From IMG/VR virus record IMGVR_UViG_2563366990_000018: 7,908 nt of DNA. One strand, written 5' to 3'. The notes under the pieces are model-generated. The model had not been told where the DNA came from and ran no database searches. It was given only the letters and a program-made list of their open reading frames with translations. A program made the translations under genes and the position numbers. The stretch comes from a virus (lineage: Duplodnaviria; Heunggongvirae; Uroviricota; Caudoviricetes). The number at the start of each line of letters is the position of its first letter. The stretch's first letter is position 1. Positions 714 to 6,389 of this stretch are shown here, piece after piece.

Positions 714-2441
714 TTATAATGGAAAATACTCAAACCCCGAAGCTCCTGACGACACATACTCACCCACGCTGACTGTACGCCACTGAGAACCATCAAATGT
801 CACCTGAAGCGGCCTGTAAGATACCCTGTCAATAAGGGTTTTGTTTCCGTCGTTGTAACCGCCAATCCCCGTAATCATTGCACCAATATCCAAATCCACT
901 GCCCATGTAGTGCTGTCTGTTTGCGGCGCATAAGTCTGTTTATTACCCAGCCTGATACCCACAACCCGGCTCTTCCCGTCTGATGTCCCGGGCGGCCCCA
1001 TCGGCCCGGTTTCTCCACGCTCACCTCTGGGACCGGGGTCGCCTTTCTCCCCTTTCGGTCCCTGCGCTCCCCGCGGACCAGCAGGACCTGTTGCTCCCGT
1101 TTCACCTTTCGGACCCTGTGCTCCGGGGTCGCCTTTCTCTCCTTTCGGACCGGGAACACCACCTCCTGCTGCAGCCTCTTCTGCCTTTGTTTTCGCTTCA
1201 TTTGCCACATCCATTGCCGCCTTCACGGCCTTCGGCGTGGCTGCCTTTGTTTCGTCATTACTGCCAGTATCACTGCTTAACTGCACCACACCTTTCTGCG
1301 TCGTGCTGGCATCCCGCTGGCTGACCGTATCCGGTTTGTTTTTTGTGCTGTAATCCACCCGCCAGTGGAAATACTGTGTGTCGCCGTAAACCGTACAGGT
1401 ACAGACCGTGCCATTAATAAACCCCGTTGCACCGTATTCGCCAATGGTGACCCGGACTATGGCAGCCTCATACGTTCCCATCACCTCAATGACACAGCCA
1501 CCCAGATTGAGTTTTCCCGGTCCGACATCCGTGATGACTTTATTGAGTACCGCAGGCAGTGATGCCTTCATCATCCAGTAAGGCTGGTCAAATGCCCCTT
1601 TTTCTTTCAGCCAGGCGACAAACTCGCTCGTGGTCCATTCACCGGCCCCCGTATGAATGTCCCGCCCGTATACTCTGGCTGCTCCCACGGTGTTCAGAAA
1701 CTTCACCTTATCCGGGATATCGTCACCGTTTTTCGCTTTCTCCAGGCATCCGTCCGCTTTGTCCATTGCCGCTTTCACCGCTTTCGGGGTGGCTGCCTTC
1801 GTTTCATCATCACTGTCCGTTGCGCTGCTTAACTGCACAATTCCCTTCTGTGCCGTCGTCGCATCCGGTCCTCCCGGCTCGCCTTTTTCGCCCTTCTCTC
1901 CCCGTTCACCTTTCACACCCTGAAGCCCCTGTGGTCCTGTCTCACCACGCTCACCCTTTGGCCCCCGCTCGCCGGTATCGCCTTTTGGCCCGGGAATACC
2001 CTGCGGCCCGGTGTCTCCCTTATCCCCCTTCGGTCCCCGCGCATTCTCTGCCCGTTTCTTCGCTTCCTCTGCACTGGCCGCTGACGCTTCTGCACGTTTC
2101 AGGATTTCCGCTGCCACCGCTTCCAGCTCTGCAAGGGCTTTCGGGTAATACTGTGCGTCTTCCAGGTCCATCAGAAATTTATTCAGCGTTCCCGGTGCAG
2201 AATCCGCCTTCACCAGAATGTCACCCACATATGACGGCGCGTACCCTTCCGTGTTCAGCGTCACCCGGTACAACCCCGGCTCAACATCCATACTGTAACT
2301 GCCGGTTTCCCCCGGCTGACCATACGCCACCGTGGTGACAATCACCGTCTCCGTTGTGCGGCGCGCTTTCAGCTCTATCGTGCATCCCGGTACCGCTGTT
2401 CCCGTACCATCCTTCAGCACACCCGATATTCTGACTGTCAT
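714..2441 (-). CDS. stf: Side tail fibre protein with collagen-like Gly-X-Y tracts, 575 aa
   Basis: The N-terminus ([14 protein letters not shown]...CTIELKARR) closely resembles the lambda Stf N-terminus as I remember it. Two collagen-like Gly-X-Y tracts (aa 136-192 and 426-485) and two copies of the phage tail-fibre repeat motif (QKG[IV][23 protein letters not shown], aa 195-227 and 379-411). ATG at 2439-2441 preceded by a GGGGGA Shine-Dalgarno. Confidence 0.85.
987..1166 (-). repeat. Collagen-like Gly-X-Y triplet-repeat coding tract 2 of stf, with an internal imperfect ~32-bp direct repeat (1033-1064 and 1125-1156)
   Basis: Translation is an uninterrupted G-X-Y run ([10 protein letters not shown]...). 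The two 32-bp DNA copies are visibly near-identical. Confidence 0.8.
1211..1314 (-). repeat. Copy 2 of a ~104-bp imperfect direct repeat inside stf (copy 1 at 1763-1866), encoding the duplicated tail-fibre repeat motif
   Basis: Hand alignment of 1211-1314 against 1763-1866 gives about 80% identity. Confidence 0.7.
1763..1866 (-). repeat. Copy 1 of the ~104-bp imperfect direct repeat inside stf
   Basis: See copy 2 at 1211-1314. Confidence 0.7.
1866..2036 (-). repeat. Collagen-like Gly-X-Y triplet-repeat coding tract 1 of stf
   Basis: Translation [57 protein letters not shown]. Confidence 0.8.
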
Positions 2442-2454
2442 GGATTTCCCCCAT

Positions 2455-2488
2455 AAAAAAACCGCAGTACCGGTTTCCCGGCCTGCGG
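2455..2488 (-). terminator. Rho-independent terminator on the minus strand, ending the putative Hok-like transcript 13 nt before the stf start codon
   Basis: Stem ccgcag(ta)ccgg / ccgg(c)ctgcgg (2462-2488) with a tttc loop, followed on the minus strand by a run of 7 T (plus-strand A-run 2455-2461). Confidence 0.55.
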
Positions 2489-2517
2489 TAAAATTTGTGG
2501 TTTGTTGGTGTTAAAAC

Positions 2518-2540
2518 GGTGCCATCCGGCTGACCACCCT
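2518..2540 (-). other. 3' element of a long-range complementary pair (fbi-like), partner at 2849-2872
   Basis: Plus strand 2518-2533 reads GGTGCC-atcc-GGCTGA. The minus strand of 2849-2872 reads GGTGCC-ttt-GGCTGA, so in a minus-strand transcript the two ends could form two 6-bp helices around a small internal loop. Confidence 0.35.
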
Positions 2541-2551
2541 CAGCAACCGGT

Positions 2552-2574
2552 CGGCGGGGGATATTCTCCCCCGC
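2552..2574. other. Perfect 9-bp GC-rich hairpin (ggcggggga-tattc-tcccccgcc), 10 nt past the Hok-like stop codon
   Basis: Exact inverted repeat in the sequence. No clean T-tract on the minus strand; a weak one (acggtttctt) on the plus strand. Probably mRNA 3' structure. Confidence 0.4.
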
Positions 2575-2583
2575 CACGGTTTC

Positions 2584-2724
2584 TTACTGCTTACACTGTA
2601 AGAACGCCGCAATCTCCGCGCCCGCTATCCGGAACCGGAACTCGCACAGTGAACTGTGGGTGATCCAGATAATGAGCACTACCGTGATACAAATCACGGT
2701 GGTTTTTAACGGTTTTTGCGACAT
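2584..2724 (-). CDS. Hok/Gef-family-like type I toxin, 46-aa small hydrophobic peptide (MSQKPLKTTVICITVVLIIWITHSSLCEFRFRIAGAEIAAFLQCKQ)
   Basis: Hand translation of the minus strand, too short to appear in the ORF track. ATG at 2722-2724 with an AAGGAG Shine-Dalgarno 8 nt upstream, TAA stop at 2584-2586. Hydrophobic N-terminal helix followed by SLCEFRFR...EIAAF, which matches the Hok-family signature as I remember it (Hok: [21 protein letters not shown]). Confidence 0.55.
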   Translation of the reverse strand: MSQKPLKTTVICITVVLIIWITHSSLCEFRFRIAGAEIAAFLQCKQ

Positions 2725-2800
2725 AACGCTTGCTCCTTTTACGGAGAGGCGCTAACCTTCTTCTTGCTGAAGGAAGAACGTCAGGCCTCGGGTTAAACAT
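2591..2800 (-). CDS. mok-like overlapping reading frame (69 codons) spanning the Hok-like ORF in another frame
   Basis: ORF-track entry. It starts 76 nt upstream of the Hok-like start and ends 7 nt before the Hok-like stop, the same geometry as mok/hok on plasmid R1. No sequence similarity is claimed; it could be a chance ORF. Confidence 0.25.
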   Translation of the reverse strand: MFNPRPDVLPSARRRLAPLRKRSKRYVAKTVKNHRDLYHGSAHYLDHPQFTVRVPVPDSGRGDCGVLTV

Positions 2801-2848
2801 GAATGTTTGTCCGGGGCCTTCGTCTTTCCGGCCTTCAGGTGTTCCCTC

Positions 2849-2872
2849 CGGCCATCAGCCAAAGGCACCCGC
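2849..2872 (-). other. 5' element of the long-range complementary pair (tac-like), partner at 2518-2540
   Basis: See partner feature. Confidence 0.35.
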
Positions 2873-2876
2873 ACAT

Positions 2877-2905
2877 AATGTACGGTTTTTGTATCCTTCC
2901 GGCAA
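2877..2905 (-). promoter_or_regulatory. Putative sigma-70 promoter for the Hok-like mRNA (TTGCCG - 17 nt - TACATT)
   Basis: Hexamers read on the minus strand (plus coordinates 2900-2905 and 2877-2882) with a 17-nt spacer. The predicted start near 2870 would place the 5' end at the complementary element 2849-2872 and give an mRNA of about 415 nt ending at the 2455-2488 terminator. Confidence 0.3.
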
Positions 2906-2921
2906 TCCCGGGGCGCGATGT

Positions 2922-5900
2922 TCAGCGGATACTGATCCCCGCGCTGTTTTTCTTCACCACTATCGCCTGAAGGTTACTGATACGTGAACTGCCAAAACTC
3001 CCGTTCTGACGCCGTGAACTTACGGTAAAACTCAGGGTGATATGACCACCTCCGGCTGGCATATCGATGATCCCGCTGAAAATTCCCGGCTCTGTCACTG
3101 ACCTGCCGGAATAAATCCGGCGTCCGTTCTGATCAACATGCAGGAAGCACTCTGTCCAGATGTCATTACTGGTGCGGGATTCCTGTTTTGACCCGACATA
3201 GATTATCGGCGGGATTATAATCTGCCGGTCAAAGCTGTGATCGTCATACACCGTCAGCGTTCGTGTACCGTTCGCAAGGTAACTACCATCCACCGGAAAA
3301 GCCACCCCTGCACATTTCACAAGATCACCAATAATGTTCTCCGCTTTCAGCGTGCCATTTATCGTACAGTTCTCCGCTATCACGACATTATTCAGCGTGC
3401 CCGAGTTCGCACTGATATGTCCGCTGATGTCAGCATTGCGGGCCGTCAGCCTGCCCTCCGGCGTCAGGGAGAACGTCGGGGGATTGCCGGACGAGGTGAT
3501 GCTCACTGCAAACAGTCGCTTCAGGAACACGTCGTTCATGAACAGCTGATTCCCCTGCGCCACAAACAGCGGCGTGGTGTTGCCGTTCTCCGGGTTAATC
3601 ATCGCGATACGGTCCGCCTGCAGCAGTATATTGCTCAGGGGCTGGCCATCAGCATCCTCAATCCCCGCACCAATACCGGCAACATACGGAATGCCGTTTT
3701 TCGTTTTCTGCACCTTCAGCATGTACAGCGCAGCCAGGTCGTTATTTGTGTCTGCCTGCACCCGCTGTATCTGCTGTATGGTGGCACTCTGGTCTTCCAG
3801 GGTTTTACTGACCGTCTGCGTGATTTCATTGCGGGTTTCTGTGATGGTGGTCTTCATCTCCGCCATCTCATCATCAAGCTGGCTGTTATCAATCAGCTCC
3901 CACATCCCCTGTGCCAGATGTGTCTTCCCGATTTCTCCTCTGAAAAAGTCCAGATACCCTTCTGCATCATTGCTGGCCCGGCCACTGGCTTCCACAAACG
4001 CAGATTTCCCCACCAGATTGACGCTGCGCACATAAAACCAGAAATCCTTCCCCGGCTTAATGTGCGGGCCGGAGACACTCCACTGGCGGCCTGTCCCCAG
4101 ATAACGGGCAGAGGTTTCCACCTGAGATGTGTCTGCGATTTTTGCCTCCGAAAACCAGAACTCAAACTGTACCGTCGGGTCATACACCGTAAGATGCGGG
4201 ACCGCCGTTATCTGATAATACCCCGGCGTCAGTTCAATGCTGGCCGGTGCTGCCGGTGCGTTAATCCGGAACGTGGTGGTGGCAGGTTCGCCCTGCTGGC
4301 CGTAGCTGTTTATCGCCCTGACCGTCAGGGTGTATTCCCCCAGAGGCAGGCCACTGAAACGGTGCTCCGTGTCGGCAGTGATGGCGGTGGTCACCAGGCG
4401 GCTGTTTTCACCACTGCCACTGGTCAGGCGCAGACTGAAGCGCACGCCCTTCACCACCCGCGGCGTGTCCCATTTCGCCAGCGCCAGATACTGGCCGTCT
4501 GAGGCACTCACCTCCACCGTGAGGTGCTGCACAGCCGGCGGGATGACGCTGTTCAGTGAACCGGACATCGGCTCAAAGCGGGCCCCGTTATCCACGATGG
4601 CTTCTTTTTCCGGTACGTGCTGCACTGCCGTGATGGCAAAGGTGCCGTCCGTGTTTTCCCGGATGGAAACACAGCGGAACAGGCGACGACGCAGTGACGG
4701 CAGGGAGAGTCCCCACACACCGTATGCCTCCACGCCATCCGGCAGGGCGCTGACCTGTATCCGGTCCGGGGCGGGGTGTGCAGTGATGTCCACGCGCACC
4801 GGCTTACCGCTGCCGTTAATCAGGTTCACCGTCGATGTACCTGTCTCCGGCAGTGTCACCTCACGGTCCAGCGTCAGTGTGCGGCTGGCGGCATCGATGG
4901 ACAGGATACGTCCGCCGGTCAGGGTCCCGGCATAGTCGTTATCACAGATTTCAATGATGTCACCGGGCGTGTGCCGCAGCCCCTGTGACCCGAGCGTGAA
5001 ATCCACCGTCTGCGTTTCCAGCAGTTCTGTCTTTATTACCCACAGTCCGGCACGGTGGGCCTGACCGCGGCTGGTACAGCCGAACGCGTCCATCTTCAGC
5101 AGGTTGCGCCCGTAGCGCAGGATGGCGTCCGGGTCTTCCACCAGTTCCGTGGAAGTCTGCCAGCCGTTCTGCGGGTCGGTGTAATTCACCTCCACCGCCG
5201 TGTGCCGGTCCTTCAGGGCACTGAAGCTGTAGCGGAACCCCACGCCGTTATCATCCACCACCACATCGCTGTTGGTGTAGGGCCACACCACATCCGACGG
5301 ACGGTCCTGAACGAACGTCAGCGTCTGGCCGTTCCATACCGGCATACAGCGCATCGCCGAGCAGAAATCCCCCAGAACATCCCAGACCTTACGCTGCTGT
5401 GACAGGTACGCATTGAAGGTCATCCGCGGCTCTGTTCCCCCGAAACCATCCGGGACCGTCTGGTCACAGTACTGCCCGATGGCATACAGTGCCCACTTGT
5501 CCACATCCGCGGCCCCCAGGCGTTTTCCCATCCCGTAGCGCGGGTGGGTCAGCATGTCCCACAGGCACCAGGCCGGGTTATTGCTGTATGCCGGTTTCAG
5601 ACTGCCGTCCCAGATACCGCTGTAGGTGCGTTTTTCCGGGTCATAGTTTGACGGCACCTGAATGATGCGACCACGGATATGGTAGTTCACCGTCAGCTGC
5701 TGGCCACCAAACTGCTCCGCATCCACCTGCAGCCCCACAATGGCCGTGTTCGGGTAGCACTGTTTCACATCGATGATTTCGGTGTATGACGACCACAGCG
5801 TTCTGTTCTGCAGCTGGTCCGTGGTGCTGTCCGCCGTCTCCCTGACCATCCGGATGTTAAAGGGGCGCTCAGGGAGATTATTCAGAATCACCGACGTCAG

Positions 5901-6389
5901 GTACTGCGAGGTGGTCTTGCCGTTAATGGTGACATCCTTCTCCGTCACCCAGTGCCCGTTACGCTCAAGCTGAATCAGCAGGCGGACAGAAGAGGGATTA
6001 CGGTCACCCTTTGAGGTGGTCTCCACCAGTGACTGCACCCCGAAGGTGACCCGCAGACGGTCAATGTTCGCTGACGTGATGGTGCGCGTCACCGGCTTTG
6101 CCTTCGTCACCTCCACGCCCAGTGCGGTTTCTGCCCCGGAGGACTCAAAGCCTTCCGGCGGTGTCTGCTCCTGCTCCCCGGCACGCCAGACGGCGGTCAC
6201 ACCGTGTATCACGGGATTACCGTCCGTGTCCGTCAGCGGGGTTTTGTTCACCAGAATACTCTGCAGTCCCTTCACCGGACCTTCCACCGGTCCCTCACCA
6301 ATGGCATCAATCACGCTCATCATCTGCGTGGATTTGAGATTGTCCTTCGCCTCACGCGGTGTGTGCCCCTTGCCGCCCCCTTTACCCAC
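2922..6389 (-). CDS. J: Tail tip attachment / host specificity protein J (central tail fibre), 1155 aa
   Basis: Collinear similarity to lambda gpJ as I recall it, from the N-terminus ([22 protein letters not shown]...) to the C-terminus (...[11 protein letters not shown]); the middle region (around [12 protein letters not shown]...) is divergent. GTG start at 6387-6389 with a GGAGAGGGGGA Shine-Dalgarno; upstream in-frame stop at 6465-6467; TGA stop at 2922-2924. Confidence 0.95.

What the first reader, a model, noticed from the sequence alone, without database searches (positions are those of the whole stretch)
2518..2872. The ends of the putative Hok-like mRNA are complementary, resembling the hok tac/fbi fold-back
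The minus strand of 2849-2872, which would be the extreme 5' end of a transcript starting at the predicted promoter, reads GGTGCC-ttt-GGCTGA. The plus strand at 2518-2533, near the 3' end of the same transcript, reads GGTGCC-atcc-GGCTGA. The two RNA ends could therefore pair as two 6-bp helices about 330 nt apart. In hok mRNA such 5'/3' pairing keeps the full-length message translationally inert until 3' processing. Finding this around a Hok-like ORF independently supports the type I toxin reading.
Basis: seen in the sequence. Interest (0 to 1): 0.55.

Follow-up and report, generated by a model that had tools for sequence, protein, structure and literature searches.

The report
Hok toxin mRNA end-to-end fold-back
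The two ends of a small toxin (Hok) messenger RNA carried by an E. coli prophage really are complementary and are predicted to lock the message shut, exactly as in the textbook hok/sok plasmid-addiction system, so this is a correct call of a known mechanism, not a new one.

Summary
Confirmed. The first 17 nt of the minus-strand transcript (2870-2854) pair with 2534-2518. Only 2 of 5000 shuffled 3' UTRs and 0 of 5000 shuffled 5' ends match that energy. It is the best partner anywhere in the transcript and sits in the minimum-energy fold.

The locus lies between tail genes J and stf of a lambdoid prophage. It encodes a 46-aa Hok/Gef peptide (Pfam E=2e-11). Its leader matches Rfam RF01794 from model position 1 at base 2870.

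In 68 of 75 distinct homologues (Stx phages, P2-like prophages, IncI1 plasmids, chromosome) the end-pairing is in the predicted fold. The 3' element varies only by changes that keep pairing (C/U opposite G, A/G opposite U). The pairing is strand-specific. Other hok subfamilies use different but mutually complementary ends.

Removing the 3' element in silico gives the published hok switch: tac/ucb, SD-box/dcb and a nascent metastable hairpin.

One defining feature fails: no conserved mok reading frame exists in this subfamily, and the window's 69-codon ORF is not conserved.

Verdict: new member of a known kind; low to moderate interest.

The parts
2900..2905 (-). Putative -35 (TTGCCG) of the hok-like promoter, just after the J stop codon
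   Evidence: Read from the sequence. It lies 17 nt upstream of the -10. At 4/6 plus 4/6 it falls below the consensus scanner's threshold. Inferred.
2877..2882 (-). Putative -10 (TACATT) of the hok-like promoter
   Evidence: A TAnAnT box sits at the same distance (6 nt) from the GGG start in all homologues. Inferred.
2854..2870 (-). tac element: the 5'-terminal 17 nt of the mRNA (GGGUGCCUUUGGCUGAU)
   Evidence: Rfam RF01794 model position 1 aligns to base 2870. It pairs with 2518-2534 in the minimum-energy fold. It is nearly invariant in homologues.
2837..2853 (-). Local partner of tac in the nascent transcript (metastable hairpin)
   Evidence: In the 100-nt nascent fold, nt 1-14 pair with nt 18-34. 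30 of 31 representatives form this hairpin. RNAalifold puts it in the consensus structure.
2811..2822 (-). ucb-like box (CGAAGGCCCCGG). It pairs with the GAGG box in the full-length fold and with tac in the truncated fold.
   Evidence: GAGG-box/ucb pairing in 31/31 full-length folds; tac/ucb pairing in 26/31 truncated folds.
2780..2791 (-). Conserved CCGAGGCCUGAC box, positionally equivalent to the mok Shine-Dalgarno of R1. No start codon follows it.
   Evidence: Alignments. 0 of 66 distinct homologues have ATG/GTG/TTG 4-14 nt downstream.
2746..2758 (-). dcb-like box (AGGUUAGCGCCUC). It pairs with the GAGG box in the truncated fold. Its complement carries the Sok-like -10.
   Evidence: 26/31 truncated folds. 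It is invariant in the BLAST-derived homologues.
2733..2737 (-). hok Shine-Dalgarno (AGGAG), 8 nt before the AUG, held in a local hairpin with CUCUCC
   Evidence: Sequence and folds. The cost of opening the hok translation-initiation region is higher in the full-length than in the truncated fold in 31/31 representatives.
2584..2724 (-). hok-like toxin ORF, 46 aa (MSQKPLKTTVICITVVLIIWITHSSLCEFRFRIAGAEIAAFLQCKQ)
   Evidence: Pfam HOK_GEF E=2.4e-11. RefSeq annotates homologues as Hok/Gef family protein.
2730..2758 (+). Putative Sok-like antisense promoter: -35 TTGCTC (2730-2735), 17-nt spacer, -10 TAACCT (2753-2758)
   Evidence: Sequence. It is positionally equivalent to TTGCGC/TATCCT in the R1-type locus. 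The match to consensus is weak, and one search found no promoter-like site. Inferred.
2765..2829 (+). Putative Sok-like antisense RNA (about 64 nt): single-stranded 5' tail, hairpin 2784-2818, U-rich tail
   Evidence: Fold -27.8 kcal/mol, z = -4.3. Both ends are inferred.
2553..2575 (-). Stable GC-rich 3' hairpin that would end the processed (truncated) mRNA
   Evidence: 9-bp stem. Four of its pairs show double compensatory changes in homologues. It is equivalent to the terminal stem of the truncated R1 hok mRNA.
2518..2534 (-). fbi element (GUCAGCCGGAUGGCACC), the 3' partner of tac
2454..2489 (-). Intrinsic terminator (12-bp hairpin plus U7) immediately before the stf ribosome-binding site. 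Probable 3' end of the longest full-length mRNA.
   Evidence: Minimum-energy fold. Most homologues have a similar hairpin followed by a U-run 20-45 nt after fbi.
2591..2800 (-). 69-codon ORF overlapping hok in the R1-mok-like frame. Judged fortuitous, not a mok gene.
   Evidence: Its AUG lies upstream of the GAGG box with no Shine-Dalgarno. The frame is closed and has no start codon in 93-96% identical relatives and in most other homologues. No Pfam hit.

Best explanation
Bases 2442-2921 (minus strand) hold a hok/sok-type type I toxin-antitoxin cassette. It sits as a self-contained insert between tail genes J and stf of a lambdoid E. coli prophage.

Proposed mechanism:
1. The toxin mRNA starts at about 2870.
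2. While it is being made, its 5' end (tac) folds onto the next 17 nt as a metastable hairpin.
3. Once the 3' UTR is transcribed, tac pairs with the fbi element at 2518-2534 in a 16-bp long-range helix.
4. This leaves the ucb box free to hold the conserved GAGG box, and keeps the hok ribosome-binding site in an 11-bp hairpin. The full-length mRNA is therefore stable but inert.
5. Slow 3' exonucleolytic trimming back to the GC-rich hairpin at 2553-2575 removes fbi.
6. tac then takes ucb, and the GAGG box switches to the dcb box. The hairpin over the hok ribosome-binding site is weakened.
7. The RNA now becomes a target for a ~64-nt antisense Sok-like RNA made from the plus strand (about 2765-2829), or, if that RNA is gone, a template for Hok.

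Shown here by computation: the complementarity, its statistical excess, its conservation and strand specificity in homologues, and the predicted refolding.

Inferred from the R1 paradigm: the transcript ends, the processing, translational silence, antisense control and toxicity.
For: Family assignment:
- Hok/Gef domain.
- Rfam RF01794 above its gathering score, with model position 1 at base 2870.

The end-pairing in this window:
- It is present in the minimum-energy and centroid folds. The transcript's fold z-score is -8.6.
- The duplex is -27.9 kcal/mol, reached by 2 of 5000 shuffled 3' UTRs and 0 of 5000 shuffled 5' ends, and is the best site in the transcript.

The end-pairing in homologues:
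- 68 of 75 distinct homologues from four different genomic contexts have tac/fbi in their minimum-energy fold.
- On a 31-sequence alignment, 88.9% of cells are paired, against 26.8-52.1% when the 3' partner is slid by 1-3 columns. 2 of 500 shuffles reach the observed value.
- RNAalifold independently recovers the outer helix.
- The inner fbi varies (UCAGCCG, GGUCG, GGCUG, GGCCG, CGGUCG) only by C/U opposite G and A/G opposite U.
- The sense-strand duplex is more stable than the antisense-strand duplex in 39 of 40 combinations, mean -28.1 against -21.7 kcal/mol.
- Other subfamilies have different but self-complementary ends: R1-type GGCGCUU/AAGCGCC, and hokW GGGUGC-UUGAGG/CCUCAA-C-GCACCC.

The predicted switch:
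- Truncating in silico reproduces the published rearrangement in the window.
- Across 31 representatives: GAGG-box/ucb in 31/31 full-length folds, tac/ucb in 26/31 truncated folds, metastable hairpin in 30/31 nascent folds.
- The hok translation-initiation region costs more to open in the full-length than in the truncated fold in 31/31.

The published mechanism is taken from PMC9841398.
Against: - There are no experimental data for this locus or this 46-aa subfamily. Both RNA ends, the processing and the Sok-like RNA are inferred.
- Covariation inside the subfamily is weak. tac and the outer fbi are nearly invariant, most changes are one-sided, and only 4 pairs show double changes, some of which are alignment artefacts.
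- The homologues are closely related, so the counts are not independent.
- The mok frame that transmits the switch to hok in R1 is not conserved here.
- The predicted gain in accessibility of the hok translation-initiation region after truncation is small: 1.7 kcal/mol in the window and 3.4 on average. Unpaired probabilities hardly change.
- Neither promoter reaches the consensus scanner's threshold.
Confidence: 0.85

Rival explanations
1. Chance complementarity. Two short GC-rich 6-mers happen to match in a GC-rich region and mean nothing.
For: Shuffled 3' UTRs still give a mean of -17.9 kcal/mol against this 5' end.
Against: The real helix is 16 bp at -27.9 kcal/mol, reached by 2/5000 and 0/5000 shuffles. 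It sits at the exact 5' end defined by the Rfam model. It is kept in 68/75 homologues while the flanking 3' UTR sequence diverges.
Confidence: 0.02
2. DNA-level inverted repeats. The two elements mark the ends of a mobile hok cassette (recombination or transposition sites) rather than an RNA helix.
For: The cassette occurs in unrelated contexts: after lom in 933W, after ogr in P2-like prophages, on IncI1 plasmids and next to ykgM. It also occurs in tandem copies. This is compatible with a mobile module bounded by repeats.
Against: 94 of 685 pairs are G-U, which would be C-A mismatches in DNA or on the other strand. The sense duplex beats the antisense duplex in 39/40 combinations. Homology between contexts extends beyond both elements, covering the -10 box upstream and the terminator downstream in many. 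The 5' repeat has two further conserved alternative RNA partners.
Confidence: 0.03
3. The end-pairing is real, but its main role is to protect the mRNA from decay or to help 3'-end formation. It would not be a translational lock, because this subfamily has no mok to be locked.
For: There is no conserved mok. The hok ribosome-binding site stays mostly paired in both predicted forms. fbi is followed directly by GUUUU. In the R1-type locus fbi ends at nt 391 and is followed by UUUAU.
Against: The GAGG-box/ucb/dcb switch is fully conserved although no ORF follows the box. The opening cost of the hok ribosome-binding site falls in 31/31 after truncation. In R1 stability and translational silence come from the same fold-back, so the two roles are not exclusive.
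Confidence: 0.1
4. A decaying, non-functional relic. RNA structure elements persist, but the locus no longer makes toxin.
For: Several K-12 chromosomal hok loci are known to be inactivated; hokC has IS186 right after it. One homologue (L042) has lost 20 nt of the leader. No mok is present.
Against: The 46-codon ORF is intact, with invariant C12, T14, W20, C27, E28 and R30 across contexts. All RNA elements are intact in the window. The cassette is widespread: matches in 1750 of 5426 complete E. coli genomes. A preprint reports that representative novel Hok clusters are toxic (10.1101/2025.08.07.668861).
Confidence: 0.05

Closest known systems
hok/sok (parB) of plasmid R1: tac/fbi fold-back of hok mRNA
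   Same: A Hok/Gef toxin. The 5'-terminal element pairs with a 3'-UTR element about 330-390 nt away. There is a GC-rich hairpin just upstream of fbi, ucb/SD-box/dcb alternative pairings and a metastable 5' hairpin. The antisense promoter occupies the same position on the opposite strand.
   Different: The toxin is 46 aa, not 52 aa. The sequences of the paired ends differ (GGGUGCC...GGCUGA against GGCGCUU). No start codon follows the GAGG box, so there is no conserved mok. The cassette is carried in a prophage tail-gene region rather than on a plasmid. The helix is longer and almost continuous (16 bp).
hokW-sokW of Stx2 phage Sp5/933W (Takada et al. 2021, PMC8621323)
   Same: A prophage-borne hok/sok cassette in lambdoid E. 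coli phages. Its mRNA ends are also complementary (GGGUGC-UUGAGG with CCUCAA-C-GCACCC) and pair in the predicted fold. [quoted passage not shown]
   Different: It is a different paralogue: 51 aa, with an annotated mokW, at another place in the genome (933W 58460-58734). The window's type is present in 933W as a second, unannotated copy just after lom (45490-45869, 77% nucleotide identity).
46-aa Hok/Gef subfamily in P2-like prophages, IncI1 plasmids and the O157 chromosome (RefSeq 'Hok/Gef family protein'; some phage records label the match 'MokW-like host killing')
   Same: The same cassette at 73-78% nucleotide identity, with the same tac, fbi, hairpin and box architecture.
   Different: The window's lineage has lost one C in tac (UUU-GG instead of UUUCGG). 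It has a matching rearrangement in fbi (CC-GGAU-GG instead of CCG-AUAU-GG). This turns the internal loop into three extra pairs plus a bulge.

Membership tests
[quoted passage not shown] | Small hydrophobic Hok/Gef toxin ORF | tested here: met
   Pfam PF01848 E=2.4e-11, 43.5 bits against a cut-off of 22.
[quoted passage not shown] | Leader RNA homologous in sequence and structure to hok leaders | tested here: met
   Rfam RF01794: 63.7 bits (gathering score 59), E=1e-12, full model 1-157, window 2870..2713 on the hok-sense strand.
[quoted passage not shown] | tac/fbi long-range pairing of the mRNA 5' end with the 3' UTR | tested here: met
   In the minimum-energy fold. Reached by at most 2 of 5000 shuffles. 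Present in 68/75 homologues. 88.9% of cells paired against 27-52% when slid. This is computational evidence only.
[quoted passage not shown] | Metastable 5' hairpin in which tac pairs with the sequence immediately downstream | tested here: met
   Predicted in the window and in 30/31 representatives. Present in the RNAalifold consensus.
[quoted passage not shown] | After loss of fbi: tac/ucb stem and SD-box/dcb stem | tested here: met
   Predicted in the window and in 26/31 representatives. The closed SD-box/ucb form is predicted in 31/31 full-length RNAs.
[quoted passage not shown] | Stable 3' stem-loop upstream of fbi that ends the processed mRNA | tested here: met
   Hairpin at 2553-2575. 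Four of its pairs show double compensatory changes.
[quoted passage not shown] | mok: an overlapping leader ORF with its own Shine-Dalgarno, whose translation is needed for hok translation | tested here: not met
   0 of 66 distinct homologues have a start codon 4-14 nt after the GAGG box. 36 of 66 have no upstream ORF reaching the hok translation-initiation region at all. The window's 69-codon ORF starts upstream of the box and is closed in close relatives. The in-frame extension is blocked by an invariant UAG.
[quoted passage not shown] | Sok antisense RNA with its own promoter, overlapping the leader | tested here: inconclusive
   TTGCTC-17-TAACCT lies at the position of the R1 Sok promoter, followed by a 64-nt RNA with a stable hairpin and a U-rich tail. 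The hexamers are weak and the scanner found nothing. There are no expression data.
[quoted passage not shown] | 3' exonucleolytic processing that activates translation; toxicity of the peptide | not testable with these tools
   Needs Northern blots or RACE after rifampicin, and expression assays.

The most novel reading that the evidence does not exclude
The 46-aa Hok subfamily to which this locus belongs is a mok-less variant of hok/sok. The former mok Shine-Dalgarno box would survive only as an RNA switch element. In that case the tac/fbi lock and the antisense RNA act on hok's own ribosome-binding site through the ucb/GAGG-box/dcb relay.

The cassette lies inside, and in the same direction as, the phage late tail operon, with the Sok-like promoter facing it. 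Late transcription could therefore silence the antitoxin and release Hok at induction. This would resemble what was reported for the unrelated hokW copy.
Probability: 0.3. Interest if true: 0.45.

Novelty: new member of a known kind. Interest (0 to 1): 0.25.

Why it matters
It confirms that a tool-free reading of raw sequence can recover a genuine long-range RNA regulatory helix.

It supplies full element-level coordinates for a prophage hok cassette that public records annotate only as 'Hok/Gef family protein' or leave unannotated. One example is the second copy after lom in phage 933W.

It adds to the evidence that the hok folding programme is kept in prophage-borne copies. A recent survey found hok enriched in prophages but did not analyse mRNA structure, mok or Sok.

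The one point of wider interest is that the whole RNA switch is conserved without a mok frame. That raises the question of how the switch reaches hok translation in this subfamily.

Tried and rejected
With an alignment, the genome-contig scan gave only 6 loci, too few for covariation. I therefore used a 15-nt pattern from the dcb region against viral contigs.
- About 10 of the pattern hits were unrelated sequences and were dropped. I selected homologues and set their 5' ends by requiring a GG[GA]TG[CT]CTT start, so part of the invariance of tac is by construction. fbi was not used for retrieval.
- The sigma-70 scanner found no promoter on either strand. Both promoters are proposed from position and homology only.
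- K-12 hokC was fetched as a comparator but is cut off by IS186 right after the ORF, so it was not used.
- My first mok analysis relied on a remembered frame relationship. I checked it against R1 coordinates (mok AUG 116-118, hok AUG 174-176) and against annotated mokC and mokW, which are in-frame extensions. I then tested all frames.
- Unpaired-probability profiles showed almost no change at the hok Shine-Dalgarno between the full-length and truncated forms. The opening-energy measure gave a consistent but small effect. I therefore do not claim that direct unmasking of the hok ribosome-binding site is demonstrated.
- MAFFT puts the window lineage one column out of register in the inner helix. 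This lowers the paired fraction of helix 2 (79.7%) and creates some spurious 'double changes'.
- The Gultyaev et al. covariation papers were not available.

Full report
CONTEXT. The window is the tail end of a lambdoid E. coli prophage, read on the minus strand. It holds the tip-attachment protein J (2922-6389; seven J-specific Pfam domains), a 480-bp gap, a side tail fibre (714-2441; phage_tail_N, collagen and Phage_fiber_2 repeats) and a tail-fibre assembly protein (1-672). The gap is 95.9% identical to phage 1720a-02 and 99.2% identical to a prophage of E. coli 2012EL-2448, in both cases between J and the fibre gene. In the gap lies a 46-codon ORF (2584-2724, minus strand) that matches Pfam HOK_GEF (E=2.4e-11). 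Bases 2870..2713 match Rfam RF01794 ('sok', 63.7 bits, gathering score 59) over the whole model. The match is on the hok-sense strand, with model position 1 at base 2870 and the model ending at the hok AUG.

THE OBSERVATION. It is accurate. The minus strand reads GGTGCC-TTT-GGCTGA at 2869-2855. The plus strand reads GGTGCC-ATCC-GGCTGA at 2518-2533. As RNA, the two pairs of hexamers are nested and antiparallel. Folding the 418-nt transcript 2870..2453 puts nt 2-17 in one nearly continuous helix with 2518-2534: 16 bp, one bulged U, and the three U's paired to A-G-G. The transcript as a whole folds far better than shuffles (z = -8.6). The duplex is worth -27.9 kcal/mol. Dinucleotide shuffles of the 3' UTR reach that in 2 of 5000 trials, and shuffles of the 5' end in 0 of 5000. 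No other site in the transcript is as good.

RELATED LOCI. The cassette has relatives at 73-78% nucleotide identity in four other settings:
- just after lom in Stx phages such as 933W, where it is not annotated;
- after ogr in P2-like prophages;
- on IncI1 plasmids;
- next to ykgM in the O157 chromosome.
A pattern search in viral contigs added more. This gave 75 distinct full-length sequences.

The 5' 20 nt are almost invariant (GGGUGCCUUU(C)GGCUGAUGG). This is partly by construction, because I used that start to set the 5' ends. The outer half of the 3' element (GGCACCC) is also almost invariant. The rare singletons are mostly wobble-compatible (C6>U opposite G; C>U opposite G2 or G3), and two break a pair.

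The inner half of the 3' element does vary: UCAGCCG, AAGGUCG, UGGUCG, UGGCUG, UGGCCG, UCGGUCG. Every variant keeps pairing to CGGCU(GA), through C/U opposite G and A/G opposite U. One divergent locus (L050) changes G13 to A opposite a U.

The window's own lineage lost the C of UUUCGG. It rearranged the opposite loop from CCG-AUAU-GG to CC-GGAU-GG, which converts an internal loop into three extra pairs. The few variants inside the lineage are neutral or add a pair.

In 68 of 75 sequences the end-pairing is in the minimum-energy fold, with probability above 0.9. On a 31-sequence MAFFT alignment, 88.9% of cells pair, against 26.8-52.1% when the partner is slid by 1-3 columns. 2 of 500 column shuffles reach the observed value. 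The outer helix is 97.7% paired. The inner helix is 79.7% paired, but this figure is depressed because the window lineage sits one column out of register. RNAalifold recovers the outer helix without being told about it.

G-U pairs make up 94 of 685 pairs. The sense-strand duplex is more stable than the same DNA read on the other strand in 39 of 40 combinations, -28.1 against -21.7 kcal/mol. This argues for selection on this RNA rather than on a DNA inverted repeat.

Honest limit: inside the subfamily, true two-sided compensation is scarce, and the sequences are close relatives. Between subfamilies the compensation is plain. The R1-type locus has GGCGCUU with AAGCGCC. The hokW locus of 933W has GGGUGC-UUGAGG with CCUCAA-C-GCACCC. 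The window has GGUGCC-UUU-GGCUGA with UCAGCC-GGAU-GGCACC. All three pair end to end in their predicted folds.

THE REST OF THE PROGRAMME. The published R1 model (summarised in PMC9841398) has four states or elements:
- a metastable hairpin in which tac pairs just downstream;
- a full-length form locked by tac/fbi, with the mok Shine-Dalgarno held by ucb;
- 3' trimming;
- a truncated form with tac/ucb and SD/dcb stems, which binds Sok or is translated.
The window reproduces each step in silico. At 100 nt, nt 1-14 pair with 18-34. At full length there is tac/fbi plus AGGCC.CGG (2819-2811) pairing with CCG.AGGCCU (2791-2783). When cut 2-7 nt after the GC-rich hairpin 2553-2575, nt 1-11 pair with 49-58 and GAGGCCUGAC pairs with GUUAGCGCCUC.

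Across 31 representatives the closed form appears in 31, the switched form in 26 and the metastable hairpin in 30. The 3' hairpin carries four pairs with double compensatory changes. It corresponds to the terminal stem whose disruption destabilises truncated R1 hok mRNA.

On the plus strand, TTGCTC-17 nt-TAACCT (2730-2758) sits where the R1-type locus has TTGCGC-17-TATCCT. It would give a ~64-nt RNA with a free 5' tail, a 9-bp hairpin and a U-rich end (-27.8 kcal/mol, z = -4.3). I treat this Sok-like RNA as probable but unproven. The hexamers are weak and the scanner found nothing.

WHERE IT DEPARTS FROM THE PARADIGM.
(1) mok. In R1, mok starts 8 nt after GAGG and must be translated for hok to be translated. 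Here the GAGG box is conserved, but no ATG, GTG or TTG lies 4-14 nt after it in any of 66 distinct homologues. 36 of the 66 have no upstream ORF reaching the hok start at all. The in-frame extension is closed by a UAG inside the invariant GGUUAGCGCC. The window does have a 69-codon ORF (2591-2800) in the R1-mok-like frame. However, its AUG is upstream of the box and lacks a Shine-Dalgarno, and the frame is closed in relatives that are 93-96% identical. I judge it fortuitous. How the switch is passed to hok is therefore open. hok has a good AGGAG of its own, held in an 11-bp hairpin in the full-length fold and a 3-bp one in the truncated fold. The computed cost of opening the initiation region falls in 31 of 31 cases, but only from 13.6 to 10.2 kcal/mol on average (11.8 to 10.0 in the window). 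Pairing probabilities barely move.
(2) The 3' end. fbi is followed at once by GUUUU, and 28 nt further on by a strong terminator (2489-2454) abutting the stf ribosome-binding site. R1 gives two full-length isoforms, and its fbi ends at nt 391. Either end would keep fbi.
(3) Setting. The cassette points the same way as the late tail operon, with the antisense promoter facing it.

COMPARISON AND VERDICT. This works like R1 hok/sok and passes every structural membership test I could run, apart from mok. It is not the hokW-sokW locus studied by Takada et al. (51 aa, elsewhere in Sp5/933W). It is a second, shorter paralogue that 933W also carries. Hok loci are known to be common in prophages. That survey explicitly left mRNA structure, mok and Sok unexamined. 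The finding is therefore correct and well supported, but it re-identifies a textbook mechanism in a family member that databases already label Hok/Gef: a new member of a known kind. The apparent absence of mok is the only feature a specialist might stop at.

Noticed in passing
window 2591-2800 (-): A 69-codon ORF overlaps hok in the R1-mok-like frame, but its AUG lies upstream of the conserved GAGG box. It is not conserved even in 93-96% identical relatives. Across the 46-aa Hok subfamily no mok-like ORF is conserved: 0 of 66 have a start codon after the box.
   Followed up: yes
L002 (AF125520.1 phage 933W) 1501-1880, i.e. record 45490-45869: Phage 933W carries an unannotated second hok cassette of the window's type directly after lom, in addition to the annotated hokW/mokW/sokW at 58460-58734. 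The neighbouring CDS L0129 overlaps its 3' end.
   Followed up: partly
L013 (CP061270.1) 97-237, 569-709, 1043-; L043 4318-4673 and 5040-5397: Tandem arrays of two or three complete hok cassettes, spaced about 470-720 bp apart. Each has its own tac and fbi.
   Followed up: no
L016, L017, L019: Contigs labelled Planococcaceae, Vagococcus sp. and Xanthomonas pisi carry hok cassettes. Where the leader could be read (L017), it matches the E. coli P2-like prophage type; L016 is masked with N over this stretch and L019 was not examined. This probably reflects contamination or mislabelling of those assemblies.
   Followed up: no
L042 10232-10571: A member of the window's lineage lacks 20 nt of the leader (the metastable-hairpin partner) and has GTG instead of ATG as the hok start. 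It may be a decaying copy. It still keeps tac/fbi.
   Followed up: no
window 2553-2575: The GC-rich 3' hairpin of the hok mRNA is also flagged as a terminator-like site on the plus strand (stem followed by ACGGTTTCTT). It could act in both directions.
   Followed up: no
window 2281-2577 (-); L001 3346-3525: A 98-codon ORF spans fbi, the terminator and the start of stf. The equivalent stretch is annotated as a hypothetical protein in phage 1720a-02. Given the RNA elements beneath it, this is probably a spurious gene call.
   Followed up: no
window 714-2441 (-): The side tail fibre contains two collagen-like Gly-X-Y blocks. Each is adjacent to a near-identical 'TTQKG(I/V)VQLSS...[15 protein letters not shown]' Phage_fiber_2 repeat (before the first, after the second), which suggests an internal duplication.
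   Followed up: no
L143 (NZ_CP128973.1) 283-673; L142 (K-12 mokC/hokC); L144 (mokW/hokW): Annotated mokC and mokW share their stop codon with hok, so they are in-frame N-terminal extensions. R1 mok is out of frame with hok (mok AUG 116-118, hok AUG 174-176). The R1-like locus in pMTY1886 also reads in frame. The frame relationship between mok and hok therefore differs between subfamilies or between annotations.
   Followed up: partly
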